From the human T2T-CHM13v2.0 reference genome, Homo sapiens: a stretch of 64,000 nt of DNA. Under the pieces are notes generated by a model that made no database searches, had not been told where the DNA came from, and was given only the letters and a program-made list of their open reading frames with translations. The stretch's first letter is position 1. Every line of letters begins with the position of its first letter. Shown one piece after another: positions 1 through 36,906 of this stretch. The position numbers and the translations under genes were made by a program. The DNA is taken from positions 22,400,001 through 22,464,000 of the forward strand of contig CP086569.2 in the NCBI GenBank assembly GCA_009914755.4, given 5' to 3'.

Positions 1-50
1 TTCTGAACATCTAAGTGGAAGTTCTTATAGAGATGCACTTCAGAGATACG
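1..50 (+). CDS. RBMY1: RBMY1 upstream copy, penultimate coding exon, 5'-truncated by window edge; encodes ...[16 protein letters not shown](G)
   Basis: Translation matches the RBMY1 C-terminal region. A GT donor (gtaagg) sits at 51. The sequence is identical to 23541-23590 in the complete copy. Confidence 0.85.
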
Positions 51-461
51 GTAAGGGTCCAGGATGGATTTGTAAATTACAGAATTTTATTTAATAGACC
101 AGATTGTTATTTTAATGAAATTCTAAGGAAAATTGTAAAGGCCATATGCAACATGTTTAAATATTGAGTATTCTTAACAGTATAAAGCCTAGGGAATGAT
201 ATGAAGGTGAGAACTTCAGTTAACGTTAAGAAAATGTGACTGAGCATTTACTTTAGAATTAAGTTTGTTAAGCTGCAAAATACTACTCTTACACTTCTCT
301 TAAATAAAACCTTCTGACTATTAAAGCCTTGATTAATATCCTGTCAACAAAGGCGGAGGAAAGCAGATATTTCCAAATAGTACTTTAACTAATTCATGCT
401 TTAATGATAGCAGTAAAAATGTTTAAATGTAGTCCCACATATTATTTTACCAACCCTGCAG

Positions 462-760
462 GGACCTCTCATGGTGCACCACCTGCAAGAGGGCCTCGGA
501 TGTCTTATGGTGGAAGCACCTGCCACGCATATAGTAATACACGAGATAGATATGGCAGAAGTTGGGAGAGTTACTCGAGCTGTGGTGATTTTCATTATTG
601 TGATCGTGAGCATGTTTGCAGAAAAGACCAAAGGAATCCGCCTTCTCTGGGTAGGGTGCTCCCTGATCCTCGTGAAGCATGTGGTAGCTCAAGTTATGTG
701 GCATCTATAGTAGATGGTGGGGAGAGTCGATCTGAAAAAGGAGACTCGAGCAGATATTAA
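462..760 (+). CDS. RBMY1: RBMY1 upstream copy, terminal coding exon; encodes (G)[17 protein letters not shown]...EKGDSSRY* with TAA stop at 758-760
   Basis: The acceptor cccctgcag ends at 461. The ORF-track protein 404..760 contains the RBMY1 C-terminus. The ORF-track frame differs by 1 nt from the spliced frame but gives the same residues. The 404-461 portion is intronic. Confidence 0.85.
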
Positions 761-1040
761 AGCAAGCATTGAAAATAATAGTTATTGCATACCAATCCTT
801 GTTTGCAAATCAAAAATTGAAATGTTATTTCTGCATTGTTACCTGCATATTACTGAAAGAAACATGTTGGTTTTGTGGAGAGAGGTAGATACTAACTTCC
901 TCCATGAATTTTTTGAGGTATTCAAAGGAAAAGGAATTGTTTTCAAAGTAATTTCATACTTGTTGATGCTATTTGAAAAGTGTTTAGATGTAATATCTAC
1001 CTTAAAATTTTCACAATAAAATTTGACATGTACTGCAAGA
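761..1040 (+). other. RBMY1: RBMY1 (upstream copy) 3'UTR, with AATAAA polyadenylation signal at 1015-1020
   Basis: aataaa lies ~255 nt after the stop codon. A T/GT-rich region follows (tgtactgcaagatgcctggtgtt). Confidence 0.6.
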
Positions 1041-1635
1041 TGCCTGGTGTTATTGGTTAGCCGCGCATGCTTAAAGCAAATTCAATAGGAGAGTAAATTG
1101 TGTAGTCTGTTGTACATTTTCCTTTGTTTCTTTGAACATAGGTACAAAATTAGGGATGTGTTATGTCGCCCTTGCAAGCTGCTCAAGTTTTGTAATTAGG
1201 CTGTTTCTCTTTAAAAACTAACAAGGTTAAAATGTTGGAGAAGTCTTCAGAAAGACTACAAAACTGTCTGCCTCACCATAAAACGTTTATTTTTTAGAGG
1301 AATAGTACAGGTCAAAGGAAATCATTAGATGTATTGATACTAAAGTTTAAGACATCCGGAACATTCTATGTGAAGCATTCTGTGACTGAAGAGGATAACG
1401 GTAATGAAAACTTTTTTTTTCACCTAAATCAGAAGTGAACCAGCTAAGTTTCTCAGGTGCGTAGCATAATGAATTTAAATGTTCGTAGTTTAAATAGTGG
1501 AAAGTAAGTGTTTTGTCTTGTGAGGTTCCCACGTTAATTTTTTCTTGAATATTTTGACAGTGGATGTTGTAAGTAATGGTTTAGTAATATGTTCTTACAG
1601 ATAGGAATAATCTAGAGTGGTTGGGATAGTATCAG

Positions 1636-1918
1636 TTTTTTTTTGAGGTGAAGTGTATAGCTTTGTCGCCGAAGCTGGGGTGCAGTGGCTCTGTCTTGGC
1701 TTATGGCAACCGCTGCCTTCTGGATCCAAGCTATTCTCCTGCCTCAGCATCCTGAGTAACTGGTATTAGATATGTGTGCCGCACAGCGGGGCCAATTTTT
1801 GTATTTTTAGTGCAGACAGCGTTTCACCTTGTTTGCCAGGCTGTTCTTAAAATCCTGATCCACCCTCCTCAGACTCCCGAAGTGCTAAGATTATAGGCGT
1901 GTGCCACCACTGTCAGCC
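1636..1918 (-). mobile_element. Alu (antisense); paralogue at 25176-25458
   Basis: Starts with poly-T and ends ...ggattacaggcgtgtgccaccac. Confidence 0.8.
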
Positions 1919-2392
1919 TATCGTATTTAATTGATAATATGAATGGAAACGCTTTAAACCTCATACTTAGGGGAAAGTGAAGTGTATAAAACATAAACAA
2001 CAGCATAAAGTTTCCGACGGGATTGCTTAAAGTTTTAAGACATCACTGAATGATACAAATATTTAGACCGAAATAACTAAATGAATTAATTTTCCTGATT
2101 ATACAAACTAAAGAAATGAAATACATCAAGTTCCAGAAGTTTTGCAGTCCATAATTCTTACAATTGACAGACTAATCTGCAAGGAGGAAGTATTTTCTTG
2201 AAAAATTTTGACAGAATCATCAATTTTTACAGGGTAAGGGTACAAATAATTTTAAAGGGAGAAGTTACCAACTTTGATTTTCAAGTGAGTTATTCATGTT
2301 ATGGAGTGTTTTCATTCACCTGTAGCATTGTGAGGATGAAGTGAAAAGATAAATCTCCCGAGTCTTGTGTATCTTACTGTCCATGTGTGATG

Positions 2393-2665
2393 GCTCAGGT
2401 CTCTAATTCTAACACTTGGGGAGGCCGAGGCTTGCAGAGCACTTTAGGACAGGAGTTGAAGACCAGGCTGGCCAACACCATGAAACCCCATCTCTACCAA
2501 AAATACAAAAATTAGCCGGGCATGGTGGTGCCTGCCTGTAGTACGTTGCAGTTAATTGGGAGGCTCAGGCAGGACAGTGGTTTGAACCTGGGAGCCTGAT
2601 GCTGCGGTGAGCCGATATTGCACCATGCACTCTAGCCTGGGTGACAGAGTGCAACTCCAACACAA
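2393..2665 (+). mobile_element. Alu (sense); paralogue at 25933-26205
   Basis: Contains ggaggccgagg and ends ...cagcctgggtgacagagtg. Confidence 0.8.
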
Positions 2666-2741
2666 AAATAATTATATCAATCAACAAATATATACATAAT
2701 AAATAGGGTATCCTTCAGTTCAAGCACTTACCGATTCTTTT

Positions 2742-3043
2742 TTCTTTTTTAGAGACAAGGTCTCACACTGTTGTCCAGCCTAGACTGCAGTGGCACCATC
2801 ATAGCTCACTGCAGCCTTGAACACGGGCTTGAAATGTGCAAGCCTTCCATTTCAGCCTCCCAAGTAGCTGGAATTACAGACACACACCAACCACCGTGCC
2901 CAGCTTTTGTGTTTGTGTGTGTGTGGTAGGGACAATGCTTTGGATATATTGTTCAGGCTGGTCTCAAACTCCCAGACCGAAATAATCCTCCTTCCCTGGC
3001 TTCCCAAAGTGTTGTGATTATAGCCGTGAGCCACTGAGTCTGG
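2742..3043 (-). mobile_element. Alu (antisense) with an internal (TG)n; paralogue at 26282-26583
   Basis: Contains gagacaaggtctcac...cccaaagtgttgtgattatagccgtgagccac. Confidence 0.8.
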
Positions 3044-3414
3044 CATATCTTTTCTCATTATGAGCGACATTCCACCTCACTGAGTCTGGCGTATCTTTTC
3101 TTGGTATCAGCGACATTCCACCTTCGCTCTATTAATTATTTTGAGATGTACAATAAATCATTATTAAGTGTAGTCATCCTGTGCCACTGAACACTAGATA
3201 TTATTCCTTCTAAGCAAGTATAATTTAACCCACCCCCATCCCCTCTTTGATCCCTCGCTTACCAGTTCACATTACTTGTATCAAAATATCACATGTATGC
3301 CAAAAGTATCTACAACTGTTAGGTACAAATTTTCATTCCCTTCCTCCTTCCCTCCCTTCCTTTCTTCCTTCCTGTCTTTCTTTCTTTTTGTCTCTGTATC
3401 TTTTTCTCTCACTG

Positions 3415-3710
3415 ATTTTTTTTTTTTTAAGAAAGAATCCTGCCCTGTCACCTAGGCTGGAGTGCAGTGGCGTGATCTCAGCTCACTGCTCCCTCCTTAT
3501 CACGGGTTCAAGCAATTGTCCAGTCACACCCTCCTAAGCAGCTGCGACTGCAATCATATGACACCAATCCTGGCAAATATTTTGTATTTTCAGTAGAGAC
3601 CAGGTTTCACAATATTTGCTCAGGCTGGTCTTGAGTTCCTTTCCTTTAGTGATCCACCCACATCAGCCTCTCAAAATGCTGGGATCCAGGCATGAGCCAC
3701 ACTGCCCACC
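3415..3710 (-). mobile_element. Alu (antisense); the duplication-identity step falls inside it. Paralogue at ~26955-27250
   Basis: Contains tttttttttaagaaagaatcctgccctgtcacctaggctggagtgcagtggcgtgatc. Confidence 0.75.
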
Positions 3711-3738
3711 CAGTTGTATGCATTTCTCTCTCCCGTGA

Positions 3739-3945
<207 letters not shown>

Positions 3946-5044
3946 TGGCATCTTGTCATGTCTAATTTCGTATCTGTTTTAAAGCTCGATTGATAAGCAA
4001 TATTGACTTCCTGGAATGTTTTATGTTTACAAAACAATTATAGTACTACTATTTAGCCTCCTCAGATAAAATATGGTAACACACAAAACATACACACACA
4101 GACAAAGACACAGTCAGTGATCAAAAAAAATCAGTGTAGGCCACGACCTAAATGAAAGGTGAGCTGCTGCAGTTGCCTAGAATTAAAGCAGACCAGAGTT
4201 GACCCATACCAGGCTGAGAGATGTGAACAGAGGCTTTCCAACAACTCTATCAGATACATGTTAGATTATTCTCCAGCCATAGCGAAGGGACATTAAAGAT
4301 CTGTTGTGCTTAGAAGAGTCTCGATGATTTGACTTTTCCAGGGTATTAGCATTCATGATGTTGGCCTTTACAGCTCTCTGCAATGAAGTCAGTAGACGAC
4401 ACAGTTTTTCTAGGAGTCTAAAGTGCTTTTCAGAATTATCTAAAACTTAGTGGCTTAAAACCATAATTATAATTTACTAACTGTCAGTCTCTGCAATCGC
4501 CCTCAGTCTCTCAGCCAAATGAATGTGGTTCAGGGGCGCTCAGGAGGATGCAATCTAGTGATGGCCAAAGATGGGGACATTGGCGGGTGTCTTCTCATCT
4601 CCCTGGTGCCATGGCTAGCGTGACTCAAATAGCAGGGGCTGGACTGCTGAGATGCTCAGACATCTTGTTCTGTTTCTTTGAGTCTCTCCATTGGATGTCC
4701 CTTCTGCATAGTGTTATCAGGGTGTTAGACTGCGTGATGTACTGGTCGGGGGCTCCTAAGGGGTTTGTCCCCATGAGAGCAGGAGACCTAGGCAGAGCCG
4801 TGTCACCGTCTCTAAACTAGGCCAGAGGTGGTCCAGTATCCAGAAACTGCTTGCAGTGTTTTCTATACATTAGAAGCAAGTACTGTGTTCAGTTCCATCA
4901 GGAATATTTTCAAATGGGTTTGAGAAGAATTTCAAAGTGTGTTTCAGACCACTACAGTGGCCATGCCTAATAATTCCTTATTTTTACAAGTGCTGGATGG
5001 GTTTTTCCCAAAATAATGCTTTCTTGGGGGGTGTGGGGTGGTGG

Positions 5045-5335
5045 AGACAAAGCTTTGGTCTTGTGACCCAGGCTGTAGTGCAGTGGCGTGATCTTGGCTC
5101 ACTGCAACCACCGCCTCTTGGGTTCAACCGATTCTCCTGCCTCAGCCTCCCAAATAGCTAGGATTACAGGAACCTGCCACCATGCCCAGCTAATTTTCGA
5201 ATATTTAGTAGAGGTGGGGTTTCACCATGTTGACCCCGCTGGTCTTGAACTTCTGACGTCTGGTAATCCACCAGCCTTGGCCTCCGAAAGTGTGGGGATT
5301 GCAGGCGTGAAACACCCCGTCCGGCCTTCAAATTA
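5045..5335 (-). mobile_element. Alu (antisense), present only in copy A at the end of the duplication
   Basis: Contains gagacaaagctttggtcttgtgacccaggctgtagtgcagtggcgtgatc. Confidence 0.8.
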
Positions 5336-5624
5336 TATTTTCATACCCACTCACTTCCACAATTTTTTGGACCTATCTGCGTGTTCTCCTCGGAGGCGGG
5401 GGGACGGAAACAGTATCAGCGTTCTTGAAAAATTTATGAAAGAGAGAATGACAATACTATACTAGGTTTAACCTATTCACAATACTGTATTTACTGAATA
5501 AAAACATTGCGTTTAAAATTCTACTATTGACTAAATAAATAAAATACACTCTTCCATTCACTCTAAAATGTGTGTACATGAAGAGTATACAAGAAGGGTT
5601 CTAATACAGAAACAAATAAATGAG

Positions 5625-5905
5625 GCTGGGCATGGTGGCTCACGCTGTAAGCCTGGCAGTTTGGCAGGCAAAAGTGGGTGGATCAGTTGAGGTGAGGAGT
5701 CGGAGACCAGCCTGGCAAATATGGTGAAACCCAGTCTTGACTAAAAATACAAAAATTAGCTGCACATGGTGGCATGCACCAGTAATCCCAACTCCTCAGA
5801 AGGCCGAGGCAGGGGAATTGCTTGAAGCTGGGAGGCGGAGGTTGAGGTTGAGCCGAGATCCTGCCACTTCACTCCAGCCTGGGTGACAGAGCAGTACTCC
5901 TCAAA
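5625..5905 (+). mobile_element. Alu (sense)
   Basis: Contains ggctgggcatggtggctcacgctgtaagcc...ctccagcctgggtgacagagcag. Confidence 0.8.
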
Positions 5906-6404
5906 ACACACACAGACACCCCAAAACAACTAAAAAATGAAAATAAAAATTTTGTACTCACAGTTCAACTCGCATATCTAACGGAAAACAGAAAGTACAT
6001 TAAAACAAAGTTTCCACAAAAGGCAAATAAAACAAATGAATCACCTTGCACATAAAATTAAAATAATAAACTGAAGAGAACTATACGGAAAAAAATTCAA
6101 AATTTACAAGTAAGTACTCTACAAGAAGCTGAAAGTCACTCAAAACTTTTCTGGATTCCATGTCTCTACAGTGCAAACATGATCGTAAAATTTGCTGGGG
6201 GCAGAACCATCAAAATGTATCTTACAACTCAATAAACACTTCAAGTCTCACATAAGAATTGTAATGGAAAAGGGACGCGTCTGCAGTATTTCTACACAAA
6301 TCTGAACAAACACTATTTCTTTGTACACATTGTTTCACTGTTCCAAGAAAATAACTTCCATATTAATATTAGGGGATGTGACAAAGCAGGTCTTCATCAT
6401 GATA

Positions 6405-9400
6405 AGTAACACTGGGTGTCCACACCACTACTCAGGTGGGCCTTAATTCCCAGCCAGGTTCCCTCCCTGGACACACAATGAAGGGCTCATCCATTTTGCA
6501 ATCTCTTCACATTTCCTCCCCTGTGAGCCCAGTGTGGTTCTCCAGATTCCCTGTGTAGCGGCCTCTCTTGTCTGGTGGGGCAGGGTGGGGCAGGGAAGTG
6601 TGGGTGATGATGGCAGAGGGCAGAAAGCATCTCAGGGAAGCCTGGGATCATTGTAACAAAAAATGATGGGCGTGGGACAGCCCATCAGGGAAGACATAGA
6701 GAGGGGCCTTGGGAGGATATCTGCGTGGAGGGTGAGAGGGCCCTGGTTGAGCCCAAACTGAGCCCCAAGTGGTAGCCGGCCTCAGGCCTCAGCCGGTGAG
6801 GGATGATGAGACAGCTACCACTTGAGCCTTGCTTCTCACCCACTGACCTTAGACACTTACTCCTCTTAGGCGGCTGAAGGTGCCCCAATCCTAAAATGTG
6901 GGTGTTACAGTTCTTTGATGGCCATTTCTCCGCCAGCCCATGGATGGCGTGGGATTGCTCACTGCAGTCACCTCCCTGAGGCTTGGTTTCTCCATGTGGG
7001 GCACAACTCCAGGAATCAACCGCCTCTCAGTCCCCAGCCCCAGACTGCTCACCTGGCCTCCTCTCTGTTCACTCTCTAATGGCCTCCCTCCCTGGAGAAG
7101 TACTGCAGGGGATTGAGCTACAGGCTCTGGCTGATGATCTAGGGGACTGCAGAAGTGGGTACAGGTTAGTTCAGGTCATGGCTCAAAGCCAGTTCCCCAG
7201 AGGCCAAGGAATGACCAGCAAGATCCTTTCCCATGATGCCCTACCTGGCGCTCACCTCAGCAATCCTGCCAGAACCTGGGCAGTCATGGTCAGCCAACCA
7301 GCTGAAGAAGGTCAGGTAGGAGCTGTACGGCCTGCAGCTGGAGGCTTGACCTTCATGATCCCACAACCACTAGACTGCAGTGGAATGAGACATCCCGTAT
7401 CCTGCAGAGAGAGGAGTCAGGAAGGTTCATGCCAGACCTACCCTCCCACACACCAGCTCCCCTACCATGCTGGGAGGCGCTCCTTACCGAGGATGCCAAG
7501 GCAGTACTCCTGAATGATCACTTCATTGTGGAAGTAGAGACTGTGATAAAAGGAAAACTTCATCCTGCTGCCGGTACCCGGAAGAGTTGCTTTCCTCCCC
7601 TTACCTGGCCAAGAAGGAGAAAGAGGACGTACTCAAAGGAGCATTTCATGTAGCTGGGGTGAGGTGACCTGTTAGCTGGGGTGAAGCATGTGTTTCTCCT
7701 TCCCAACTCTCTCATTGAGACACCCCCGGGTCCCAGGGGTACCTCAACCTGACCCAGACACCAGACCCCTCCCGAAGACTCAGGCTCCTTAGCCCGACCT
7801 GCAAATCCATCACGTACGTAGCTTAGCAGGACTTCATCATCATTTGTGATCCCGGCCAACATCTCGGTGTGCCGCACAATCTGCCTCTGGTCAAGGAGCC
7901 GCCGGATGATTGGGTGGGCGTGCAAGGAAACACCCTGCAACTTTGCAAGAGCACGGAGAGTGTGGGGCAGGGCACCTTCCCTTCCAGGTCCTCTGTCTCT
8001 GTCTGGCGTGGAGGGCACCATCAGAGCTGTGGTGGTCTTGGTGGTGGGTGGAGGCAGGCCCAGACAACCTGCTCTGACCAGGGGCTGGCACTGAAGAAGT
8101 GGGCAGGGGGTTGGGGGCGGGGTGTTGTTGTGTGAGGCGACTACTTGCTCGGCGTTTCTGAGCTGCAGGAGGCCCTCCTGTGCTGGGTGCTGGACAGGCT
8201 CTGCTGCTGTCTGGGTGTGCCGTCTCTCCTTCTCCTGGTCTCCCTGAGGGGTGCACGTGTCCACCCCAGGCAACCGCTGTGGGTAGAAGTAGCTACGGGG
8301 CTGTGCCTGGCTCTCCCCGTGGAGCTCGAGTGGTTTCAAGGGAGCTTATATATACTCAGGGCCTAAACATCTTTGGGTGCAGCGCTGGCAGAGGGAAGAA
8401 ATTGTGTCTGGGGAGATAGTGCCTGCCTTGCATAGGACAGCAGCCCCGTGCACAGTGACACCGAGTCTTGAGCACCTTGTGTTTCTGGGGTAAGCTTGCT
8501 GGACACAGGCAAGGGGAGCAGGGAAGTTCCGTGGCTGGCATGGGCATGCAGACTCCCCTTCCTCCAGGGACTTTCCCGGTGAATCGTATCCTTCAACTTT
8601 CTGCTGTTATGATGGGTCCTTGGCGCTGCTATTCTCCCTGGTGAGTGCTGTGCTTGGCTTCCTGTCCCTACCACATGCCCTCAGGGCACATGCAATTAAG
8701 CTGCCCTCCTATCCGCATGAGCCTGTTCTCAGTTCCCCTTGTTGTCCCCCATGCCCTGAATCCTGGCTGACCGCCAGTGCCTACCACCTTGTTTCCCCCC
8801 ACCTCCGCTCCCGGGAGCTCCGCGCCCATCCCCTGCTGCCAACCATCCCGAATTGGCAGCTGCAAGGATATGGCTCTGGCCCAGAAGCCGGGGATGCCCT
8901 GTGGCCTGGGACATTCACGTAGCCGAGCTCCAAGTGAAGGACGTCCAGCGAGTCTGTTGCTGGCCGGGGCGTACTGGGGCCAGGGCCAGGCTGTGCCTGC
9001 AGGTCCTCCTGCTGTGGCTCCACATTGGCCTTCCTCCTTGGCCACCACCTCCATCTCTGCAATGATGTCATCCCCCACTAGCATGCCTCTCCCCGCAGGG
9101 TTGTCTTCCTGCTCTGTGCACAGACCATCCTCTCCTGCACAGCCTCCAGCCTTAACATGGTGCCCTCCTTGAGGCTCCAACAGAGCAAAGCCTGTGCCTC
9201 CCACCCCACCCCCCCGGCACCCGTCAACTCTGGGGGCAACTCCAGGAGAGGCCTGCGGGCCTTGCCCTGCTGAGAACCACATCCTACACCTATGTGGAAC
9301 AGGGTTCCTGGGGGGCCCCACAGGGCCCTTAGCCTGTCACACTCACACTGGGGCTCAGATACCCAGCAGGGTTAGCTGCGCACGGCAGCCCTGGAGTCGG

Positions 9401-9800: not shown

Positions 9801-9949
9801 CAATATTCAGTACCATCAGCCTAGCCTGCCTAATGAAGTGAGATGTTTCATGTGTTCCCTGTGGGTTAGTTAATGTCTTGCCACACTCAGGATGCCAGTT
9901 AGGGTGTAGGTCTTCCATGCCCACAATTGCAAAGGGCTCACAGTTCGCG

Positions 9950-10280
9950 TGTGCCTTAATCCACCGCGGCCCGCCACGTGGCACAAGCGTGGTCTCGGAA
10001 GAGTTACCGCGAGATGATGGAGCCGCAGGCCTGCTGGGGCGGAGCGGCCTCAGGACACGCCCACAGCCTTTGCAGTAACTGGCTGACGCCCACCGCCTTC
10101 GCAATGATTGGCCGCTGGAGGTAGGCGGGATTTCCGGGCACGGCTTCCGGCGTCCTTCCCTCTCAGGGAAGCTCCAGCTGTCCCTCCCGCAGTTGGCCCT
10201 GTGGTGTTCCGAAGCCGGTTACGTACGGCCTGAGGGCCAGGCGAACCTCAGGCTCTTTGTCCTACTAAAAAGCGCAGGTA
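9950..10280 (+). promoter_or_regulatory. RBMY1: CpG-rich, TATA-less candidate RBMY1 promoter plus a putative non-coding exon 1 (donor G|GTATTT at 10277/10278)
   Basis: High CpG density. There is an inverted CCAAT (attgg) at 10107-10111 and GGAA/ETS-like motifs (ttccgggca, cttccggcg). The sequence aaaagcgcag|gtattttc is a plausible donor. The ATG exon at 12143 is preceded by a strong acceptor (tttaccatttacag), which implies an upstream non-coding exon. The TSS position was not determined. Confidence 0.4.
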
Positions 10281-12121
10281 TTTTCTGTTTCTCTGGACAG
10301 CTGGGTCTCTCGGCAAGAATAGAAAGCGAAGGTTTGGGATTTTGTCTATAAAAGGGGATGGGTTTTCTATGTGTGGGTGTTGAATTACGGGAGGAGTCAG
10401 TGGGGAAAGAACTCCTCAGTGCTATTAAGAGACTCACTTTCGTTAAACTCATTGATTTTTCCTGAGGATTCTACCTTTAACTGCCTAATGTGTCCGACTA
10501 GTTGTGGGAGATGGTGCTAAGCCGCCATTGGTTTTCATGTGCACTTTTTATTAAAGCGGGTTTTCTCTGTGAATGTGGTGATAATTCAGAATACAGGCAA
10601 TACACTTAACCACTGCGATTAAAAAGTCACACTTTTGGTTAGCACATGTCGCGTGTCTGATTTGCTTGGAAGAATTATCAAATTTTGACATAAATTGTGT
10701 TACTTTAGTGTATGTAGAAATATGGGGCCACAAATAATCTGAGTTTCAGTTTGCCTCTGTAAAGCCTGTGATTGTCTCCTTCGTTGTATGGCAGTATTTG
10801 AAACGTTTCATGTGTCTTTGGCACCGTAAATAATTTAAACCGAATAAGTGGGTGTAATCGAGACAAATGGAGTTAGATAGCCGAAAACTGGAACAAAATA
10901 GATGCGCTTAAGTTATTCTGTTAACCTGGCACACTGCCTTACTCCTGTAGTCCTAGCATTTTGGGAAGTGGAGGTCGGAGGATGGCTTGAAGTCAGGAGT
11001 TTGAGACCAGCCTGGGTAACGTACTGGACTCTTTCATTGCTATTTTCGCATCAGGGACTGGTTTAGTGGAAGTCAGTTTTTCCTCAGAGAAAGGTTGCGC
11101 AGGGGAAGAAGGCGGCGAGGTGGACAGGTTTGGGAGTGGGGGCTGGCGGCAGGTCTCCGAGGGGCACGTGGTGGGGCGGGTCTTCCGGTAGGAGCAATGT
11201 GACAGAGGCCAGGTGGGGCAGTGAGGCTGTCACGGGGACAGGGAGGGCCAGCGAGGGAGTAGGGAGGATGGTTTCCGGATAAAACTGTACCACCTCAGGT
11301 CATCCTCAGGCGTTACATTCTCCACAGACAGGTATTGCAGGTCATCCTCCGGCATCACATTCAGGCCACAGATAGGTACGGGTTGAAGGCTAGGGTTTGG
11401 GGATCTTTGACCTATTGTATATTTCAAATCACTAAAAGATGGTAAAATATTTAAAATATTCTCCTCCTAGAACATTTTAAGTAGCTTGATTTAATCTCTT
11501 ATCCAAATATCATGCTGAGTGTGGTGAGTCACCCTTGAAATCCCATCACTTTGGTAGTCCCAAGCCGGCAGAACACTTGAGCCGAAGATTTGGAGACTAG
11601 CTTGGGCACTATGGGGAAACCCTTGTCTATTTTTAAAAATACAAAAAATTGCCCAGCTGTGGTAGAAAGCGCCTGTAGTACTAGCTACTTGGGAAGCTGA
11701 GATGTAGGAAGATCAGTTGAGGCTGGGTGGAAGAGCCTGCAGTGAGCAGTTCACTTTGGCGACAGGAGACAGACATCTCAAGAAAGAAAATATGCAAAAC
11801 ATCACACTGTACCTCATAAATAGATTCTTTTCAAATAAAATTATTTAAATGGGGACATTCTTCATATTGCAACTGAGGAAAATTACAATAGCTTTTCTTA
11901 TCTAATTTTTAGAAATGAGATTTTTGTCAGGTACATACTAAAATGCAGCATTTGTCCATGAAGTTAGTGCCCCTTTGCTCTGAGTGTTACAAATTTTACA
12001 TATATAAAGTAAGAAATACTAAAAAGATGTCAGCCTCAGGAAGGGAATTTTACTTGGGTTTTCAGCACAGTATGTAATAAAATTTTATCTTTTTAGCTTA
12101 TTTATATCTAAATATAGATAA

Positions 12122-12314
<193 letters not shown>

Positions 12315-12667: not shown

Positions 12668-12847
<180 letters not shown>

Positions 12848-14463: not shown

Positions 14464-14768
<305 letters not shown>

Positions 14769-15848: not shown

Positions 15849-16026
15849 TCTTTGCATGGAAAAGCAATAAAAGTAGAACAAGCCAAGAAACCATCTTTTC
15901 AAAGTGGTGGTAGGCGGAGACCACCAGCTTCTTCGAGAAACAGAAGCCCTTCAGGAAGTCTGAGATCTGCAAGAGGAAGCCGTGGAGGAACAAGAGGGTG
16001 GCTTCCCTCACAAGAAGGGCACCTGG
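15849..16026 (+). CDS. RBMY1: RBMY1 coding exon ([21 protein letters not shown]...[11 protein letters not shown])
   Basis: Acceptor is acttctag and donor is ctgg|gtaatg. The exon lies inside ORF-track protein 15852..16100. Confidence 0.85.
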
Positions 16027-17941: not shown

Positions 17942-18094
17942 ATGATGGTGGATACACTCCTGATCTCAAGATGAGTTATTCTAGGGGACTCATTCCAGTT
18001 AAAAGAGGTCCATCTTCAAGAAGTGGAGGTCCTCCTCCGAAAAAATCTGCTCCTTCTGCTGTGGCAAGAAGCAATAGTTGGATGGGAAGCCAAG
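17942..18094 (+). CDS. RBMY1: RBMY1 coding exon ([51 protein letters not shown])
   Basis: Acceptor is gaaatacag and donor is caag|gtaaat. The phase joins cleanly with the flanking exons. Confidence 0.85.
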
Positions 18095-18487
18095 GTAAAT
18101 GCTGCCTGACAGAAAGACCGTAGTTTTTGTATGACTAAAAATGAGCCGTTTTAGCTGAATGCTTAGCTTTAAGTTCATTGAACAAAAGAGAAGTGACACA
18201 TACGTGAGCATAATTACTGATTGATAGCTTTTATTATAGTTTCTATCTCACTAGGTACATTTCAGATTTATGTTGAAGAAATACTTGAGCTTCTCATTGC
18301 AGATCAAAGAAGTGATTAGAGTGAGGCCAACATTCCTTTTAATCCTGTGTTGGCTAGAAAATTCCCCTTAATTTTTCTAAAAGTTCCTAGCAGTATTCTT
18401 TGATGGTAGGCTTCTTGATCTAATTAACTCTTCCATTTCCTAAGTCCCCTGGTGTCCCATTCTAAAAATTGCTTGTTCGGTGACTTT

Positions 18488-18805
18488 GCTGGGTTGGAGT
18501 CTTGCTCTTACTAGGTGAGAGTGCACTATGTGAGACGACGGCTTACTGTAGCCTCAAATTTGTGAGATGACGGCTTACTATAGCCTCAAATTCCTGGGCT
18601 CAAGCAATTCTGCTGTTTCAGCCTCCCGAGTTTGTGCAACTACAGGCATGCAGCAGCACACCTAGCTACATTTTTTTCCCTATGTTTTTGTAGAGAGAGG
18701 ATCTGACTACATTGTCAAAACTGATGTTAAAGCCTGGGGCTCAAGCGGTCCAGCTGCCTCAGCCTTCCACACTCACTCACAGTGTGAGCCGCTAAGCCTG
18801 GCCAT
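18488..18805 (-). mobile_element. Alu (antisense, with an internal duplication), in RBMY1 intron
   Basis: Contains ctcaaattcctgggctcaagcaattctgctgtttcagcctcccgag. Confidence 0.7.
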
Positions 18806-20104
18806 CCAGCTTCTGAGACCTCAGTAATGCGTATGTGCAAGGCATACTCACTGCTTGCATGAAGATTCAAAAGAACTACAAGAGCATTTAGCAGACAAGG
18901 AGTCATTGGGCTTAAATATGATTTAAAAATAAATTTAAGGCTCGAGAGGTAGACACGTAGGAGTCCAAAATTCTTAAATTAAGTGGATATCACAGAAATG
19001 CAGAGTTGTGAAATATAGGTGTATGTAAATCAGTAATTGAGATTGTACCGGGATGTTTAAACATTAACACAAGATCCTTAGTGTAAGATTTGAAATTATT
19101 TGAGGAGAGAATTTAGAACTCAGCAACATGAGGTGAGCGGTAGGGTTGAATGCAAGTAATACTTTTGAGAAGAATTGTAAGACTGCAGACTGAACAGAAG
19201 AAAATAAGACAATAAATAAAAGTTCTTAGCAAGGAAGTTTAAGCAGAGCAAATTAAAATTCTTTCTTAGTCCTCCATCCGCATACGGAGGAAGTTAAAAA
19301 CTGCCATTTTCAATTTTACATTTCATACGTAGAGTATCGGTGAAGGGAGGTATTTATTGGCTTCAGGATACCCAAGCCAACACATTTCCATTGGAAAATT
19401 AGCCAGTGAAGGTATCATATGTGAAACACTGACCGCTAAGGAATAGCAAGTGAAGAATATATTAGAGGAGAAACTTTCTATTTTGAAACAGCAACAATGT
19501 TGTAATGACCCCTTGCATAGCATTGCTTTCTTTGCAGTAAAAGCAAATCTTGACCATCATTAGAAAATCTTCACTAATACATTTTAATTTGTCAACATTT
19601 AAGATAGAGCCAACCAGTTAAAGAACTTTTATGTAAACATTTAGCATATAGTCATTTAAAGGTAGCTGTATTTATGTGTCTGTGAGATGGACTGAATGAT
19701 ATTGGAAAATCTACCTTCTTTGGCTGAGAAAGAACAATGTATGTAAACTTTAAAATCAGTGAAGAGTTTGATGGTTTTACGTGTTTTCCCTGTGTCACTC
19801 ACAGTCATCAGTAATTTATATGGAAAGGAAAATAATAACTAAGTAGTTATTAACCATTACAAATGAACTTTTACCTAAGCATTAATGTTTGCCTTCAGCT
19901 TCATTAGAAGAACTGGCCTTGTGGGAGCCATGGGATTATCCAAAGCCATGAGAAATATTCACAGTGTCATGTCTGTCTAGTAATTTAGGAAACAAAGAAT
20001 GGAGTCATAGAAGAAATAATTTTAAAAAGTTGTTTGAGAGAAGAGAAAATAGCGTTTCAGATTTGGTGTTCTTTACGTAATGTTCCATCATTTGAATGTT
20101 AAAG

Positions 20105-20219
20105 GTCCCATGTCACAAAGAAGAGAGAATTATGGAGTTCCTCCACGCAGAGCGACAATATCTTCCTGGAGAAATGATCGCATGTCAACAAGACATGATG
20201 GTTATGCAACTAACGATGG
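20105..20219 (+). CDS. RBMY1: RBMY1 coding exon ([39 protein letters not shown])
   Basis: Acceptor is gttaaag and donor is gatgg|gtaaag. The frame is maintained. Confidence 0.85.
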
Positions 20220-21174
20220 GTAAAGGAAAAATTAAAAAGCACAGTTGATTTTTTTTTCCTGTGGTGATGAAATTCACATAACAAAATTAAATATTATAAG
20301 GTGAACAGTTAGGTGGTGTTTGATACATTCTGTGCCATGCAACAACTACCTCCATCGAGTTCCAGAACATTTTCATCACTCCAAATTGAAACTCCTACTA
20401 CCAGTTAAGCAGTCCCTCCCATTTTCTCCTTTTCCTCAGCTGCTAGATAACACCAGTCAGTGTTCTGCCTCTGAACTTACCTGTTGTGGGTATTTAATGT
20501 TAATGTGCTCAAACACTACATGACTTTTTGTATTTGTCTCCTCTCCTTTTGCATGATGTCCTGAAGGTTCATTTACATCATAGCACTTCACTCCTTCCAC
20601 AAGCTATTAACCCATTATTTTATCTGCGTTGTTTCCACCCGAGTATTTCTACGCACCAATATTTGTTTGAGTGTGCTTACTCGGTTCTGGGTGTATATGA
20701 GTGGAATTGCATGGTCCTATGATAATGATGTTTGTTTTCTTGAGGAACCACCACATTTCTCCATAGTAGCTGCATCATTTTCCGTTCCAACCTAGCATTG
20801 TATCAGCAATCCAATTTATCTACATCCTCTCAAACACTTGTTATTTCCTGCTGTTTGAAATTTATTGCCATTCAAATGTGTGTTTGAAATATGATATCCC
20901 ATTTTCGATTTGAAATGCATTTTCTGCACCCATTAACTCATCATGCACATGTATCCTAGAACTTAAAGTATAATGAAACAAAAAGAAATGCATTTTCTGA
21001 ATCGCTGAATATGAGTATCAGTCCCGTGTGCTTTTTGGGCATTTGCCGATTTTATTTGGAGAAATATCTGTTTAGATGTTTGGCCTTTTAATTTTGTTTA
21101 AGTTGTAAGTTAGTCATGTATTGGATACTAGAAGTTGAAAATTTAAAATTTGTTGCTTAAACTTATGCACACAG

Positions 21175-21285
21175 AAATCATCCAAGTTGCCAAGAAACGA
21201 GGGATTATGCTCCACCATCTAGAGGCTATGCATACCGTGATAATGGTCATTCTAATCGGGATGAACATTCCTCTAGAGGATATAG
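21175..21285 (+). CDS. RBMY1: RBMY1 SRGY-box exon 1 ([37 protein letters not shown]), 111 nt
   Basis: Acceptor is cacacag and donor is atag|gtactg. It is the first member of the 545-bp repeat exon series. Confidence 0.85.
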
Positions 21286-21726
21286 GTACTGTAACTTTTT
21301 CTGAATTTGTCAAATAGATTTCTTAAATTGCTCATTCCAACTAACGTTCTATCAGGGCTCCAATTTATCTACATCCTCTCAAACACTTGTTATTTCCTGC
21401 TTTTGAAAATTTATTGCCCTTCCAGTGTGTGCGTATGAAATATGATATCTCATTTTGGATTTGAAATGCATTTTCTGCACCCATTAACTCATCATGCACA
21501 TGGACCCTAGAACTTAAAGTATAATTAAAAAAAAAAGAAATGCGTCTTCTGAATCACTGAATATGAGTATGTGTCCCATGTGCATCTTGGGCATTTGCCC
21601 ATTTTATTTGGAGAAATATCCATTGAGATGTTTGGCCTTTTAATTTTGTTTAAGTTGTAAGTTAGTCATGTATCGGATACTAGAAGTTGAAAATTTAAAA
21701 TTTGTTGCTTAAACTTATGCATACAG

Positions 21727-21837
21727 AAATCATCGAAGTTCCCGAGAAACTAGGGATTATGCTCCACCATCTAGAGGCCATGCATACCGTGATTATGGTC
21801 ATTCTCGTCGGGATGAAAGTTATTCTAGAGGATACAG
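21727..21837 (+). CDS. RBMY1: RBMY1 SRGY-box exon 2 ([37 protein letters not shown])
   Basis: Acceptor is atacag and donor is acag|gtactg. The exon is 111 nt, with no stop codons. Confidence 0.85.
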
Positions 21838-22271
21838 GTACTGTAACTTTTTGTGGATTTGTCAAATAGATTTCTTAAATTGTTCATTCCAACTAACATT
21901 GTATCAGGGCTCCAATTTATCTGCATCCTCTCCAACACTTGTTATTTCCTGCTTTTGAAAATTTATTGCCATTCATCTGTGTGTGAAATATGATATCTCA
22001 TTTTGGATTTGAAATGCATTTTCTGCACCCATTAACTCGTCATGCACATGGACCCTAGAACTTAAAGTATAATAAAAAAAAGAAATGCATTTTCTGAATC
22101 ACTGAATATGAGTATCTGTCCCATGTGCTTTTTGGGCGTTTGCCCATTTTATTTGGAGAAATATCTATTTAGATGTTTGGCCTTTTAATTTTGTTTAAGT
22201 TGTAAGTTAGTCATATATCGGATACTACAAGTTGAAAATTTAAAATTTGTTGCTTAAACTTATGCATACAG

Positions 22272-22382
22272 AAATCGTCGAAGTTCCCGAGAAACTAGGG
22301 AGTATGCTCCACCATCTAGAGGCCATGGATACCGTGATTATGGTCATTCTCGTCGACATGAAAGTTATTCTAGAGGATATAG
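22272..22382 (+). CDS. RBMY1: RBMY1 SRGY-box exon 3 ([37 protein letters not shown])
   Basis: Acceptor is atacag and donor is atag|gtactg. The exon is 111 nt. Confidence 0.85.
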
Positions 22383-22815
22383 GTACTGTAATTTTTCTGG
22401 ATTTGTCAAATAGATTTCTTAAATTGTTCATTCCAACTAACATTGTATCAGGGCTCCAATTTATCTACATCCTCTCAAACACTTGTTATTTCCTGCTTTT
22501 GAAAATCTATTGCCATTCATCTGTGTGTGTGAAATATGATATCTCATTTTGGATTTGAAATGCATTTTCTGCACCCATTAACTCATCATGCACATGTATG
22601 CTAGAACTTAAAGTATAATAAAACAAAAAGAAATGCATTTTCTGAATCACTGAATATGAGTATCTGTCACTTGTCCTTTTTGGGCATTTGCCTATTTTAT
22701 TTGGAGAAATACCTATTTAGATGTTTGGCCTTTTAATTTAAAGTTGTAAGTTAGTCATGTATTCGATACTAGAAGATGAAAATTTAAAACTTGTTGCTTA
22801 AACTTATGCACACAC

Positions 22816-22926
22816 AAATCATCCAAGTTCCCGAGAAACTAGGGATTATGCTCCACCATCTAGAGGCTAGGCATACTGAGACTATGGTCATTCTAGGCAG
22901 GATGAACATTCCTCTAGAGGATATAG
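22816..22926 (+). pseudogene. Relic fifth SRGY-box pseudo-exon lying between SRGY exons 3 and 4
   Basis: It is a 111-nt homologue at the exact ~545-bp repeat phase. The acceptor has changed from AG to AC (cacac|aaatcatcc). The donor has changed from GT to AT (atatag|atactg). There is an in-frame TAG (agaggc TAG gcatactgag). Confidence 0.7.
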
Positions 22927-23303
22927 ATACTGTAACTTTTTCTGGATTTATCAAATAGATTTCTTAAATTGTTCATTCCAACTAACATTGTATCAGGGCT
23001 CCAATTTATCTACATCCTCTCAAACACTTGTTATTTCCTGCTTTTGAAAATTTTTTGCCCTTCCAGTGTGTGTGTGTGAAGTGTGGAAGCTCCTTTTTTA
23101 TTTGAAATGCATTTCCTGAATCACTGATTATGAGTATCTGTTTCATGTGCTTTTTGGGCATTTGGGCATTTTGGGCATTTGGGCTCTGTGGGCATTTTAT
23201 TTAGATGTTTGGCAATTTAATTGTGTTTAAGTTGTAATGTAGTTATGTTTTGGATACTAGAAGGTGACAATTTAAAATTCCTTGCTTCAACTCGTGCACG
23301 CAG

Positions 23304-23414
23304 AAATCATCCAAGTTCCCGAGAAACCAGGGATTATGCTCCACCACATAGAGACTATGCATACCGTGATTATGGTCATTCTAGTTGGGATGAACATTCC
23401 TCTAGAGGATATAG
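23304..23414 (+). CDS. RBMY1: RBMY1 SRGY-box exon 4 ([36 protein letters not shown].)
   Basis: Acceptor is gcacgcag and donor is atag|gtacta. The exon lies inside ORF-track protein 23221..23421. Confidence 0.85.
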
Positions 23415-23501
23415 GTACTAACATGTTATCTGGATTTATCAAATGGATTTCTTAAATTGTTCATTCTGAAATTGAAAAGACTTTTTTTTTTTTCAATTTA
23501 G

Positions 23502-23590
23502 TTATCATGATGGCTACGGTGAGGCCCTTGGTAGAGATCATTCTGAACATCTAAGTGGAAGTTCTTATAGAGATGCACTTCAGAGATACG
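23502..23590 (+). CDS. RBMY1: RBMY1 penultimate coding exon ([30 protein letters not shown])
   Basis: Acceptor is caatttag and donor is tacg|gtaagg. Its 3' part is identical to window positions 1-50. Confidence 0.85.
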
Positions 23591-26500
23591 GTAAGGGTCC
23601 AGGATGGATTTGTAAATTACAGAATTTTATTTAATAGACCAGATTGTTATTTTAATGAAATTCTAAGGAAAATTGTAAAGGCCATATGCAACATGTTTAA
23701 ATATTGAGTATTCTTAACAGTATAAAGCCTAGGGAATGATATGAAGGTGAGAACTTCAGTTAACGTTAAGAAAATGTGACTGAGCATTTACTTTAGAATT
23801 AAGTTTGTTAAGCTGCAAAATACTACTCTTACACTTCTCTTAAATAAAACCTTCTGACTATTAAAGCCTTGATTAATATCCTGTCAACAAAGGCGGAGGA
23901 AAGCAGATATTTCCAAATAGTACTTTAACTAATTCATGCTTTAATGATAGCAGTAAAAATGTTTAAATGTAGTCCCACATATTATTTTACCAACCCTGCA
24001 GGGACCTCTCATGGTGCACCACCTGCAAGAGGGCCTCGGATGTCTTATGGTGGAAGCACCTGCCACGCATATAGTAATACACGAGATAGATATGGCAGAA
24101 GTTGGGAGAGTTACTCGAGCTGTGGTGATTTTCATTATTGTGATCGTGAGCATGTTTGCAGAAAAGACCAAAGGAATCCGCCTTCTCTGGGTAGGGTGCT
24201 CCCTGATCCTCGTGAAGCATGTGGTAGCTCAAGTTATGTGGCATCTATAGTAGATGGTGGGGAGAGTCGATCTGAAAAAGGAGACTCGAGCAGATATTAA
24301 AGCAAGCATTGAAAATAATAGTTATTGCATACCAATCCTTGTTTGCAAATCAAAAATTGAAATGTTATTTCTGCATTGTTACCTGCATATTACTGAAAGA
24401 AACATGTTGGTTTTGTGGAGAGAGGTAGATACTAACTTCCTCCATGAATTTTTTGAGGTATTCAAAGGAAAAGGAATTGTTTTCAAAGTAATTTCATACT
24501 TGTTGATGCTATTTGAAAAGTGTTTAGATGTAATATCTACCTTAAAATTTTCACAATAAAATTTGACATGTACTGCAAGATGCCTGGTGTTATTGGTTAG
24601 CCGCGCATGCTTAAAGCAAATTCAATAGGAGAGTAAATTGTGTAGTCTGTTGTACATTTTCCTTTGTTTCTTTGAACATAGGTACAAAATTAGGGATGTG
24701 TTATGTCGCCCTTGCAAGCTGCTCAAGTTTTGTAATTAGGCTGTTTCTCTTTAAAAACTAACAAGGTTAAAATGTTGGAGAAGTCTTCAGAAAGACTACA
24801 AAACTGTCTGCCTCACCATAAAACGTTTATTTTTTAGAGGAATAGTACAGGTCAAAGGAAATCATTAGATGTATTGATACTAAAGTTTAAGACATCCGGA
24901 ACATTCTATGTGAAGCATTCTGTGACTGAAGAGGATAACGGTAATGAAAACTTTTTTTTTCACCTAAATCAGAAGTGAACCAGCTAAGTTTCTCAGGTGC
25001 GTAGCATAATGAATTTAAATGTTCGTAGTTTAAATAGTGGAAAGTAAGTGTTTTGTCTTGTGAGGTTCCCACGTTAATTTTTTCTTGAATATTTTGACAG
25101 TGGATGTTGTAAGTAATGGTTTAGTAATATGTTCTTACAGATAGGAATAATCTAGAGTGGTTGGGATAGTATCAGTTTTTTTTTGAGGTGAAGTGTATAG
25201 CTTTGTCGCCGAAGCTGGGGTGCAGTGGCTCTGTCTTGGCTTATGGCAACCGCTGCCTTCTGGATCCAAGCTATTCTCCTGCCTCAGCATCCTGAGTAAC
25301 TGGTATTAGATATGTGTGCCGCACAGCGGGGCCAATTTTTGTATTTTTAGTGCAGACAGCGTTTCACCTTGTTTGCCAGGCTGTTCTTAAAATCCTGATC
25401 CACCCTCCTCAGACTCCCGAAGTGCTAAGATTATAGGCGTGTGCCACCACTGTCAGCCTATCGTATTTAATTGATAATATGAATGGAAACGCTTTAAACC
25501 TCATACTTAGGGGAAAGTGAAGTGTATAAAACATAAACAACAGCATAAAGTTTCCGACGGGATTGCTTAAAGTTTTAAGACATCACTGAATGATACAAAT
25601 ATTTAGACCGAAATAACTAAATGAATTAATTTTCCTGATTATACAAACTAAAGAAATGAAATACATCAAGTTCCAGAAGTTTTGCAGTCCATAATTCTTA
25701 CAATTGACAGACTAATCTGCAAGGAGGAAGTATTTTCTTGAAAAATTTTGACAGAATCATCAATTTTTACAGGGTAAGGGTACAAATAATTTTAAAGGGA
25801 GAAGTTACCAACTTTGATTTTCAAGTGAGTTATTCATGTTATGGAGTGTTTTCATTCACCTGTAGCATTGTGAGGATGAAGTGAAAAGATAAATCTCCCG
25901 AGTCTTGTGTATCTTACTGTCCATGTGTGATGGCTCAGGTCTCTAATTCTAACACTTGGGGAGGCCGAGGCTTGCAGAGCACTTTAGGACAGGAGTTGAA
26001 GACCAGGCTGGCCAACACCATGAAACCCCATCTCTACCAAAAATACAAAAATTAGCCGGGCATGGTGGTGCCTGCCTGTAGTATGTTGCAGTTAATTGGG
26101 AGGCTCAGGCAGGACAGTGGTTTGAACCTGGGAGCCTGATGCTGCGGTGAGCCGATATTGCACCATGCACTCTAGCCTGGGTGACAGAGTGCGACTCCAA
26201 CACAAAAATAATTATATCAATCAACAAATATATACATAATAAATAGGGTATCCTTCAGTTCAAGCACTTACCGATTCTTTTTTCTTTTTTAGAGACAAGG
26301 TCTCACACTGTTGTCCAGCCTAGACTGCAGTGGCACCATCATAGCTCACTGCAGCCTTGAACACGGGCTTGAAATGTGCAAGCCTTCCATTTCAGCCTCC
26401 CAAGTAGCTGGAATTACAGACACACACCAACCACCGTGCCCAGCTTTTGTGTTTGTGTGTGTGTGGTAGGGACAATGCTTTGGATATATTGTTCAGGCTG

Positions 26501-27110: not shown

Positions 27111-27153
<43 letters not shown>

Positions 27154-36905: not shown

Positions 36906-36906
36906 A

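What the first reader, a model, noticed from the sequence alone, without database searches (positions are those of the whole stretch)
1..24560. One complete, apparently intact RBMY1 gene plus the 3' end of a head-to-tail paralogue 23,540 bp upstream
The 11 coding exons from 12143 to 24300 splice with consensus GT/AG sites into a 496-codon ORF. The ORF has no stops and reproduces the RBMY1A1-type protein as I remember it. That protein has an N-terminal RRM, four SRGY boxes and a tail ending GDSSRY. The first 760 bp of the window are the last two exons of another copy. The 23.5-kb spacing equals the known spacing of RBMY1 tandem pairs on Yq11 (for example RBMY1B and RBMY1A1), but I am recalling that spacing from memory and have not looked it up.
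Basis: partly seen in the sequence, partly recalled or inferred. Interest (0 to 1): 0.5.

Follow-up and report, generated by a model that had tools for sequence, protein, structure and literature searches.

The report
Intact human Y-linked RBMY1 gene copy
This stretch holds one complete, intact copy of the well-known human Y-chromosome sperm-development gene RBMY1, preceded by the tail of the neighbouring tandem copy 23.5 kb upstream; it is ordinary, already-annotated human sequence.

Summary
Window 1-3572 repeats at 23541-27112 (99.83% identity, offset 23,540 bp). Eleven exons between 12143 and 24300, all with AG/GT splice sites, join into a 1,491-nt reading frame of 496 codons plus TAA.

The protein is residue-for-residue the RefSeq RBMY1D isoform 1 (NP_001006120.2). 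It has RRM_1 (10-79), RBM1CTR (174-218) and four 37-aa SRGY boxes, each on a 111-bp exon. A fifth SRGY unit (22816-22926) is a dead pseudoexon.

The window is colinear with GRCh38 chrY. It matches the RBMY1B/RBMY1A1 locus (99.935%) better than the RBMY1E/RBMY1D locus (99.687%). The distal flank at 42-44.9 kb decides this. So the complete gene sits at the RBMY1A1 position, the last copy of the proximal array, on a human Y other than GRCh38. It lacks seven variants private to GRCh38 RBMY1A1.

Two small corrections: the upstream copy contributes its whole last exon but only 50 of 89 bp of the penultimate one, and the protein is D-type rather than A1-type. This is a known gene of low interest.

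The parts
1..50 (+). Last 50 bp of the 89-bp penultimate coding exon of the upstream RBMY1 copy, cut by the window edge
   Evidence: Corresponds to 23541-23590 of the full copy at offset 23,540. tblastn hit of residues 382-402 at 2-64.
462..760 (+). Last coding exon of the upstream copy, with the TAA stop at 758-760. It encodes S400 and C471.
   Evidence: tblastn gives 100% identity for residues 398-496 at 461-757. Diagnostic bases are 467 T and 681 G.
1015..1020 (+). AATAAA polyadenylation signal of the upstream copy
   Evidence: Pattern search. Homologous to 24555-24560.
1..3572 (+). First instance of the near-identical tandem-unit segment (partner at 23541-27112)
   Evidence: 99.83% identity over 3,572 bp with no gaps.
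10001..10500 (+). CpG-enriched stretch about 1.7-2.1 kb upstream of the ATG. It is the candidate promoter and non-coding first-exon region. This is inferred, not shown.
   Evidence: GC 0.55 and CpG observed/expected 0.73. It is the only 500-bp bin of the whole window with GC at least 0.5 and CpG observed/expected at least 0.6. An AG acceptor 4 nt before the ATG (12139-12142 = CACA after ...ttacag) shows that the ATG exon is not the first exon.
12143..12251 (+). Coding exon 1 (ATG; start of the RRM)
12726..12829 (+). Coding exon 2 (RRM, RNP1 motif RGFAFITF)
15849..16026 (+). Coding exon 3. It contains codon 126 (CAA = Q, third base at 16013), the only residue that differs from RBMY1A1.
17942..18094 (+). 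Coding exon 4
20105..20219 (+). Coding exon 5 (RBM1CTR motif)
20785..23466 (+). Genomic tandem repeat of five units of about 545-552 bp, each carrying one 111-bp SRGY unit
   Evidence: Self-alignments at offsets of about 550, 1,100 and 1,646 bp (90-92% identity) and about 2,120 bp (83.6%).
21175..21285 (+). Coding exon 6 = SRGY box 1 (111 bp)
21727..21837 (+). Coding exon 7 = SRGY box 2 (111 bp)
22272..22382 (+). Coding exon 8 = SRGY box 3 (111 bp)
22816..22926 (+). Dead fifth SRGY unit (pseudoexon). The acceptor is AC instead of AG, the donor is AT instead of GT, and there are in-frame TAG and TGA stops. It is skipped in the 496-codon frame.
   Evidence: It shares 100/111 nt with box 1 and with box 4.
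23304..23414 (+). Coding exon 9 = SRGY box 4 (111 bp)
23502..23590 (+). Coding exon 10 (89 bp)
24002..24300 (+). Coding exon 11, ending ...GDSSRY then TAA (24298-24300)
24555..24560 (+). AATAAA polyadenylation signal 255 bp after the stop codon
34840..34911 (+). Alternative terminal coding exon used by RefSeq-predicted 422-aa isoforms of RBMY1A1/RBMY1D (tail ...ATLFQKTVHITAEITWTGPKRGGGG)
   Evidence: Exact translated match to the tail of P0014, with an AG acceptor just upstream. It explains the 22.8-kb gene range recorded for RBMY1A1 and RBMY1D.
27113..44904 (+). Distal flank of the array, of the GRCh38 RBMY1A1-flank type. It fixes the position of the gene.
   Evidence: Few differences from the RBMY1A1 flank over 27112-44904: 3 columns at the (TG)n start, 27726, 30824, an 8-column indel at 36908, 39546, and 2 gap columns at 43730. 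Against the RBMY1D flank there are 119 differences, 109 of them between 42 and 44.9 kb.

Best explanation
Window 12143-24300 is the coding part of a complete, intact copy of the human Y-linked gene RBMY1 (RNA-binding motif protein, Y-linked, family 1). Window 1-760 is the 3' end of the preceding copy in the same head-to-tail array of 23.5-kb units, in the AZFb region of Yq11.

By position, the complete copy is the last (RBMY1A1-position) copy of the proximal RBMY1 array. It lies on a human Y chromosome that is not the GRCh38 one. By coding sequence, it equals the RefSeq RBMY1D protein (Q126).

How it works rests on established knowledge, not on tests made here. The protein is a male-germ-cell nuclear RNA-binding protein. 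Its N-terminal RRM binds RNA. Its C-terminal region, with four SRGY boxes, contacts SR and SR-like splicing factors (9G8, SRp20, SRp30c, Tra2-beta), so it acts as a germ-cell-specific splicing cofactor.

The array architecture, and the mosaic of paralogue-specific variants in this copy, fit unequal crossing-over and gene conversion among the copies. That step is inferred.
For: Shown here:
- Exact 496-aa identity to NP_001006120.2 (RBMY1D isoform 1), and one difference (H126Q) from NP_005049.1 (RBMY1A1).
- Canonical AG/GT at all 10 introns.
- Pfam RRM_1 (E 6e-22) and RBM1CTR (E 1e-22).
- Residues 1-109 are identical to PDB 2FY1, the RBMY1A1 RRM (E 1.4e-66).
- Window 2144-44904 aligns end to end with GRCh38 chrY 21,526,892-21,569,664 at 99.935% (14 mismatches). 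Against the RBMY1D locus the figure is 99.687%.
- The discriminating flank at 42-44.9 kb has 109 differences from the RBMY1D flank and one 2-column indel from the RBMY1A1 flank.
- The unit spacing is 23,540 bp in the window and 23,541 bp in both GRCh38 pairs.
- Between 4539 and 27111, the only variable site where the copy differs from all four GRCh38 array copies is 26084.

From the literature:
- The gene order is RBMY1B, RBMY1A1, RBMY1D, RBMY1E in u1, with RBMY1F/J in palindrome P3. The protein is a germ-cell splicing cofactor (PMC7995748).
- The proximal array has 1-8 copies (median 4), the distal array 1-9 (median 2), and the total is 5-12 per Y (PMC13252187).
- The SRGY repeat exons are 111 bp long, and one repeat unit is skipped in most species (bioRxiv 10.1101/2024.04.02.587783).
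Against: Nothing contradicts the identification. The limits are these:
- The non-coding first exon and the promoter were not located with transcript data. I have only a CpG-enriched stretch and an acceptor 4 nt before the ATG.
- Expression of this particular copy cannot be tested here.
- The source assembly could not be identified, so 'last copy of the proximal array' rests on comparison with GRCh38 flanks only.
- The copy lacks seven GRCh38-RBMY1A1-private variants: window-equivalent 8241, 11176, 16013, 16259, 22790, 23088 and 23213.
- It carries the RBMY1D/E state at 10773 and 18154.
- So the paralogue name by sequence (RBMY1D) and by position (RBMY1A1) disagree.
Confidence: 0.96

Rival explanations
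1. The complete gene is RBMY1D itself, and the upstream fragment is RBMY1E. The window would then be the distal array read on its coding strand.
For: The protein is identical to the RBMY1D reference protein, including Q126, S400 and C471. The window carries the RBMY1D/E base at 10773 and 18154.
Against: Overall identity to the GRCh38 RBMY1D locus is lower (99.687% vs 99.935%). The flank at 42-44.9 kb differs from the RBMY1D flank at 109 positions and matches the RBMY1A1 flank. At the five other sites where RBMY1A1=RBMY1B differs from RBMY1D=RBMY1E (9359, 12266, 19497, 20639, 24045), the window has the RBMY1A1/B state. The upstream copy has S400, not RBMY1E's A400 (467 T).
Confidence: 0.04
2. 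The copy is a non-functional array member despite its open reading frame. It would be silenced or promoter-dead, like the RBMY1 pseudogene copies known on the Y.
For: No expression data are available here. The upstream non-coding exon was not mapped. Human Y chromosomes carry RBMY pseudogenes (my own knowledge, not tested here).
Against: The 496-codon frame and all splice sites are intact. From about 7.6 kb upstream of the ATG through the whole gene body, every variable site carries a base also found in at least one of the four annotated protein-coding GRCh38 copies. The only exception between 4539 and 27111 is 26084, which lies 1.8 kb past the stop codon.
Confidence: 0.03
3. The mosaic of paralogue-specific variants is an assembly artefact, produced by collapse or mis-phasing of near-identical RBMY1 units, and not a real haplotype.
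For: The units are more than 99.8% identical over about 23.5 kb, which is a classic source of mis-assembly. The copy mixes RBMY1A1-, RBMY1B- and RBMY1D/E-type bases.
Against: The window is colinear with GRCh38 without rearrangement for 42.8 kb. Copy number and sequence of these arrays truly vary among men (PMC13252187), so a non-reference mosaic is expected. There are no frameshifts or junction anomalies.
Confidence: 0.03

Closest known systems
Human RBMY1D (RefSeq NP_001006120.2; GRCh38 chrY 21.87-21.89 Mb, minus strand)
   Same: The 496-aa protein is identical. The exon structure is the same, and the spacing to its upstream neighbour is the same at 23.5 kb.
   Different: The genomic flank is not RBMY1D's. 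There are 109 differences in the 42-44.9 kb part of the distal flank, and the locus as a whole is 99.687% identical.
Human RBMY1A1 (RefSeq NP_005049.1; GRCh38 chrY 21.53-21.55 Mb, plus strand)
   Same: It occupies the same position, as the last copy of the proximal pair with the matching distal flank. Identity is 99.935% over 42.8 kb. The RRM is identical to PDB 2FY1.
   Different: There is one amino-acid difference: H126 in GRCh38 RBMY1A1 against Q126 here (16013 A vs T). The window also lacks six further RBMY1A1-private non-coding variants.
RBMX / hnRNP G (the X-linked homologue)
   Same: It has the same RRM plus RBM1CTR architecture. The RBMX RRM structures 2MB0 and 2MKS match at E 1e-41 to 1e-39.
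   Different: RBMX is a homologue, not an identical protein. The fourfold SRGY amplification on 111-bp exons is the RBMY1 feature (my own knowledge of RBMX; not compared here).

Membership tests
RBMY1 (human Y-linked RBM gene family 1) | N-terminal RNA recognition motif with RNP2 and RNP1 motifs | tested here: met
   Pfam RRM_1 at 10-79, E 6.1e-22. LFIGGL and RGFAFITF are present. Residues 1-109 are identical to PDB 2FY1.
RBMY1 (human Y-linked RBM gene family 1) | RBM1CTR (NUC064) motif shared with RBMX | tested here: met
   PF08081 at 174-218, E 1.1e-22, covering the full profile length.
RBMY1 (human Y-linked RBM gene family 1) | Four tandem 37-residue SRGY boxes, each on its own 111-bp exon | tested here: met
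   The exons are 21175-21285, 21727-21837, 22272-22382 and 23304-23414. The 111-bp repeat exons are described in bioRxiv 10.1101/2024.04.02.587783.
RBMY1 (human Y-linked RBM gene family 1) | Uninterrupted reading frame equal to an annotated RBMY1 protein | tested here: met
   An exact-sequence look-up returned NP_001006120.2 / RBMY1D isoform 1.
RBMY1 (human Y-linked RBM gene family 1) | Location in the tandem arrays of Yq11 (AZFb) with a unit of about 23.5 kb | tested here: met
   The window is colinear with GRCh38 CM000686.2 21,526,892-21,569,664 at 99.935%. The offset is 23,540 bp in the window against 23,541 bp in GRCh38.
RBMY1 (human Y-linked RBM gene family 1) | Non-coding first exon and promoter (12 exons in all) | tested here: inconclusive
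   There is an acceptor 4 nt before the ATG and a CpG-enriched stretch at 10001-10500. No transcript data were available. The 12-exon count is from my own memory.
RBMY1 (human Y-linked RBM gene family 1) | Expression restricted to male germ cells, with splicing-cofactor activity | not testable with these tools
   Taken from the literature (PMC7995748).
RBMY2 / RBMY1 pseudogene copies | Disrupted reading frame or degenerate SRGY region | tested here: not met
   There are no stops or frameshifts in the 496 codons. The only degenerate SRGY unit is the intronic pseudoexon 22816-22926, which lies in a stretch that aligns with all four functional GRCh38 copies.

The most novel reading that the evidence does not exclude
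The window captures a non-reference RBMY1 haplotype. In it, the copy at the RBMY1A1 position encodes the 'RBMY1D' protein. The preceding copy has neither RBMY1B's Y471 nor RBMY1E's A400. This would be a product of gene conversion or unequal crossing-over within, and possibly between, the two RBMY1 arrays. It would show that the reference paralogue names do not track position across human Y chromosomes.
Probability: 0.6. Interest if true: 0.12.

Novelty: already known. Interest (0 to 1): 0.05.

Why it matters
RBMY1 is a long-studied candidate spermatogenesis gene of the AZFb interval. Loss of all copies is linked to meiotic arrest, and reduced copy number is linked to poor sperm parameters (PMC7995748). 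This window adds nothing new about the gene.

Its only mild value is as an example that paralogue-diagnostic residues are allelic or mosaic across Y haplotypes. The residues concerned are H/Q126, S/A400 and C/Y471. This matters for anyone assigning reads or variants to 'RBMY1A1' versus 'RBMY1D'. Population-scale Y assemblies already document such array variation (PMC13252187).

Tried and rejected
- **Recalled guide sequence.** I used my recalled RBMY1A1 sequence as a tblastn guide. It turned out to be exactly NP_005049.1, but I used it only as a guide. The identification rests on the exact look-up.
- **Fifth coding exon.** I considered whether the SRGY-like unit at 22816-22926 is a coding exon, which would give five boxes. 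I rejected this. It lacks both splice sites and has two in-frame stops.
- **RBMY1D/RBMY1E locus.** The protein identity suggested this locus. I rejected it on flank evidence.
- **Tandem Repeats Finder.** It did not report the roughly 550-bp SRGY genomic repeat, because the tool's maximum period is 500. The repeat is shown instead by self-BLAST.
- **Reaching T2T-CHM13 or other Y assemblies.** I tried through the look-up of encoding contigs, but only GRCh38 was returned for every paralogue.
- **Rfam scan.** The whole window gave no hit.
- **Pfam scan of the ten longest other ORFs.** It gave only a retroviral Gag_p10 at 56269-56949.
- **Not used.** I ran no large protein-database searches or structure prediction, because the exact match made them unnecessary.


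Full report

A self-comparison of the window shows that 1-3572 recurs at 23541-27112 with 99.83% identity and no gaps. The offset is 23,540 bp. The similarity then drops to 93.7% for a further 1.4 kb (3581-5017 vs 27153-28576).

I used a recalled RBMY1A1 sequence only as a guide. With it, tblastn placed protein segments at eleven blocks between 12143 and 24297, and also at 2-64 and 461-757.

Refining the boundaries to AG/GT sites gave one consistent model: 12143-12251, 12726-12829, 15849-16026, 17942-18094, 20105-20219, 21175-21285, 21727-21837, 22272-22382, 23304-23414, 23502-23590 and 24002-24300. The total is 1,491 nt, which is 496 codons plus TAA. There is no internal stop, and every intron is GT...AG.

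The upstream fragment holds the whole last coding exon (462-760). It holds only the last 50 of the 89 bp of the penultimate exon (1-50), because the window begins inside that exon.

**2. What is it?**

An exact-sequence look-up found the translation in the public protein collection as RBMY1D isoform 1 (NP_001006120.2). The sequence I had recalled is RBMY1A1 (NP_005049.1).

The six named human paralogue proteins differ at only seven positions: 71, 84, 116, 126, 296, 400 and 471. The window has K71, K84, R116, Q126, R296, S400 and C471, which is the RBMY1D combination. The single-residue differences are:

| Paralogue | Difference from the window protein |
|---|---|
| RBMY1A1 | H126 |
| RBMY1B | Y471 |
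| RBMY1E | A400 |

Pfam finds RRM_1 (10-79) and RBM1CTR (174-218). Residues 1-109 are identical to the solved RBMY1A1 RRM, PDB 2FY1. The RBMX RRM structures come next.

Residues 221-368 are four 37-residue SRGY boxes. Each is encoded by one 111-bp exon, inside a genomic tandem repeat of five units of about 550 bp (20785-23466).

The fourth of the five units (22816-22926) is a dead pseudoexon. Its acceptor is AC instead of AG and its donor is AT instead of GT. It carries in-frame TAG and TGA stops. This agrees with the report that RBMY transcript diversity is concentrated in the 111-bp repeat region and that one repeat is skipped in most species (bioRxiv 10.1101/2024.04.02.587783).

An AATAAA lies 255 bp after the stop codon, at 24555. 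The ATG is preceded at 4 nt by an AG acceptor, so at least one non-coding exon lies upstream. The only 500-bp bin of the whole window that is CpG-island-like by my criteria is 10001-10500. That is a plausible promoter, but I did not test it.

**3. Where is it?**

The four array paralogues were retrieved from GRCh38 chrY (CM000686.2):

| Gene | Locus id |
|---|---|
| RBMY1D | L001 |
| RBMY1A1 | L002 |
| RBMY1E | L003 |
| RBMY1B | L004 |

Their recorded starts are 23,541 bp apart in both pairs: RBMY1B 21,513,351 and RBMY1A1 21,536,892; RBMY1E 21,916,054 and RBMY1D 21,892,513 on the minus strand.

The window aligns end to end with the RBMY1A1 locus (2144-44904) at 99.935%, with 14 mismatches. It aligns with the RBMY1D locus at 99.687%, with 95 mismatches.

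The two flanks are nearly the same up to about 42 kb. They then diverge. In 42-44.9 kb the window differs from the RBMY1D flank at 109 positions, and from the RBMY1A1 flank by one 2-column indel. So the complete gene occupies the RBMY1A1 position, the last unit of the proximal array.

The window is not the GRCh38 sequence. The copy lacks seven variants private to GRCh38 RBMY1A1, including the T at 16013 that makes H126. It carries the RBMY1D/E base at 10773 and 18154, and the RBMY1A1/B base at 9359, 12266, 19497, 20639 and 24045. Between 4539 and 27111 it differs from all four reference copies at only one variable site, 26084.

The upstream copy's 3' end has S400 and C471. It is therefore neither the reference RBMY1B nor the reference RBMY1E at those positions.

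This is expected. [quoted passage not shown] The order RBMY1B, RBMY1A1, RBMY1D, RBMY1E in u1, plus RBMY1F/J in P3, is given in PMC7995748.

**4. How does it work?**

This part rests on established knowledge and was not tested here. RBMY1 is a nuclear RNA-binding protein of male germ cells. It acts as a splicing cofactor together with 9G8, SRp20, SRp30c and Tra2-beta (PMC7995748). The RRM is the RNA-binding module, and PDB 2FY1 is its solved structure. The SRGY region is the protein-interaction module.

The near-identity of the units (99.8-99.9%), and the mosaic of paralogue-specific variants, fit homogenisation by gene conversion and unequal crossing-over. I infer this from the pattern and did not show it.

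**5. Rivals**

- *The RBMY1D/RBMY1E locus.* This fits the protein but not the flank.
- *A silent pseudogene.* It cannot be excluded without expression data. It has no support, because the frame, the splice sites and all variants between 4539 and 27111 (except 26084, 1.8 kb past the stop) are shared with annotated coding copies.
- *An assembly artefact.* This is possible in principle for repeats of this kind, but it is not indicated.

**6. Verdict**

This is an already-known, annotated human gene in its known genomic arrangement. Interest is low. The only mildly informative point is that the paralogue name by sequence (RBMY1D) and by position (RBMY1A1) disagree in this haplotype.

Noticed in passing
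window 56269-56949 (+); also 55843-56177 and 60950-61283: A 226-aa ORF matches Pfam Gag_p10 (retroviral GAG p10, E 1.1e-19). This indicates a betaretrovirus-like endogenous retrovirus fragment. A pair of 85%-identical direct repeats of about 335 bp lies around it.
   Followed up: partly
window 34840-34911 (+): This stretch exactly encodes the alternative C-terminal tail (ATLFQKTVHITAEITWTGPKRGGGG) of RefSeq-predicted 422-aa RBMY1A1/RBMY1D isoforms. It lies 10.5 kb beyond the canonical stop and has an AG acceptor just upstream. It explains why the recorded gene range of RBMY1A1 and RBMY1D is 22.8 kb but that of RBMY1B and RBMY1E only 12.7 kb.
   Followed up: partly
window 3572-3581 and 27112-27153; 3581-5017 vs 27153-28576: The 99.8% identity between the two unit copies ends abruptly at 3572/27112. 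The spacer has GCAAATA where the distal flank has a (TG)n run of about 20 repeats. Beyond that point the two sequences are only 93.7% alike for 1.4 kb. This looks like the edge of the recently homogenised unit lying inside an older duplication.
   Followed up: partly
L004 1-10000 and L003 1-2400 (GRCh38), compared with window 2143-12142: In GRCh38, RBMY1B is preceded by the same inter-copy spacer as in the window, including sequence that normally lies downstream of a gene copy. So at least part of another unit lies upstream of RBMY1B. Upstream of RBMY1E, the sequence diverges by about 6% proximal to window-equivalent 4538.
   Followed up: no
window 42000-46505: Identity between the RBMY1A1-side and RBMY1D-side flanks collapses from about 42 kb onward. 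This is the presumed edge of the inverted duplication that carries the two arrays. A 75.7%-identical direct repeat of about 1.7 kb lies at 42648-44354 and 44781-46505.
   Followed up: no
window 3032-3123 and 26572-26663; 11296-11378; 18529-18592: There are small two-copy tandem repeats with periods of 46, 42 and 32 bp. The 46-bp one is present in both unit copies.
   Followed up: no
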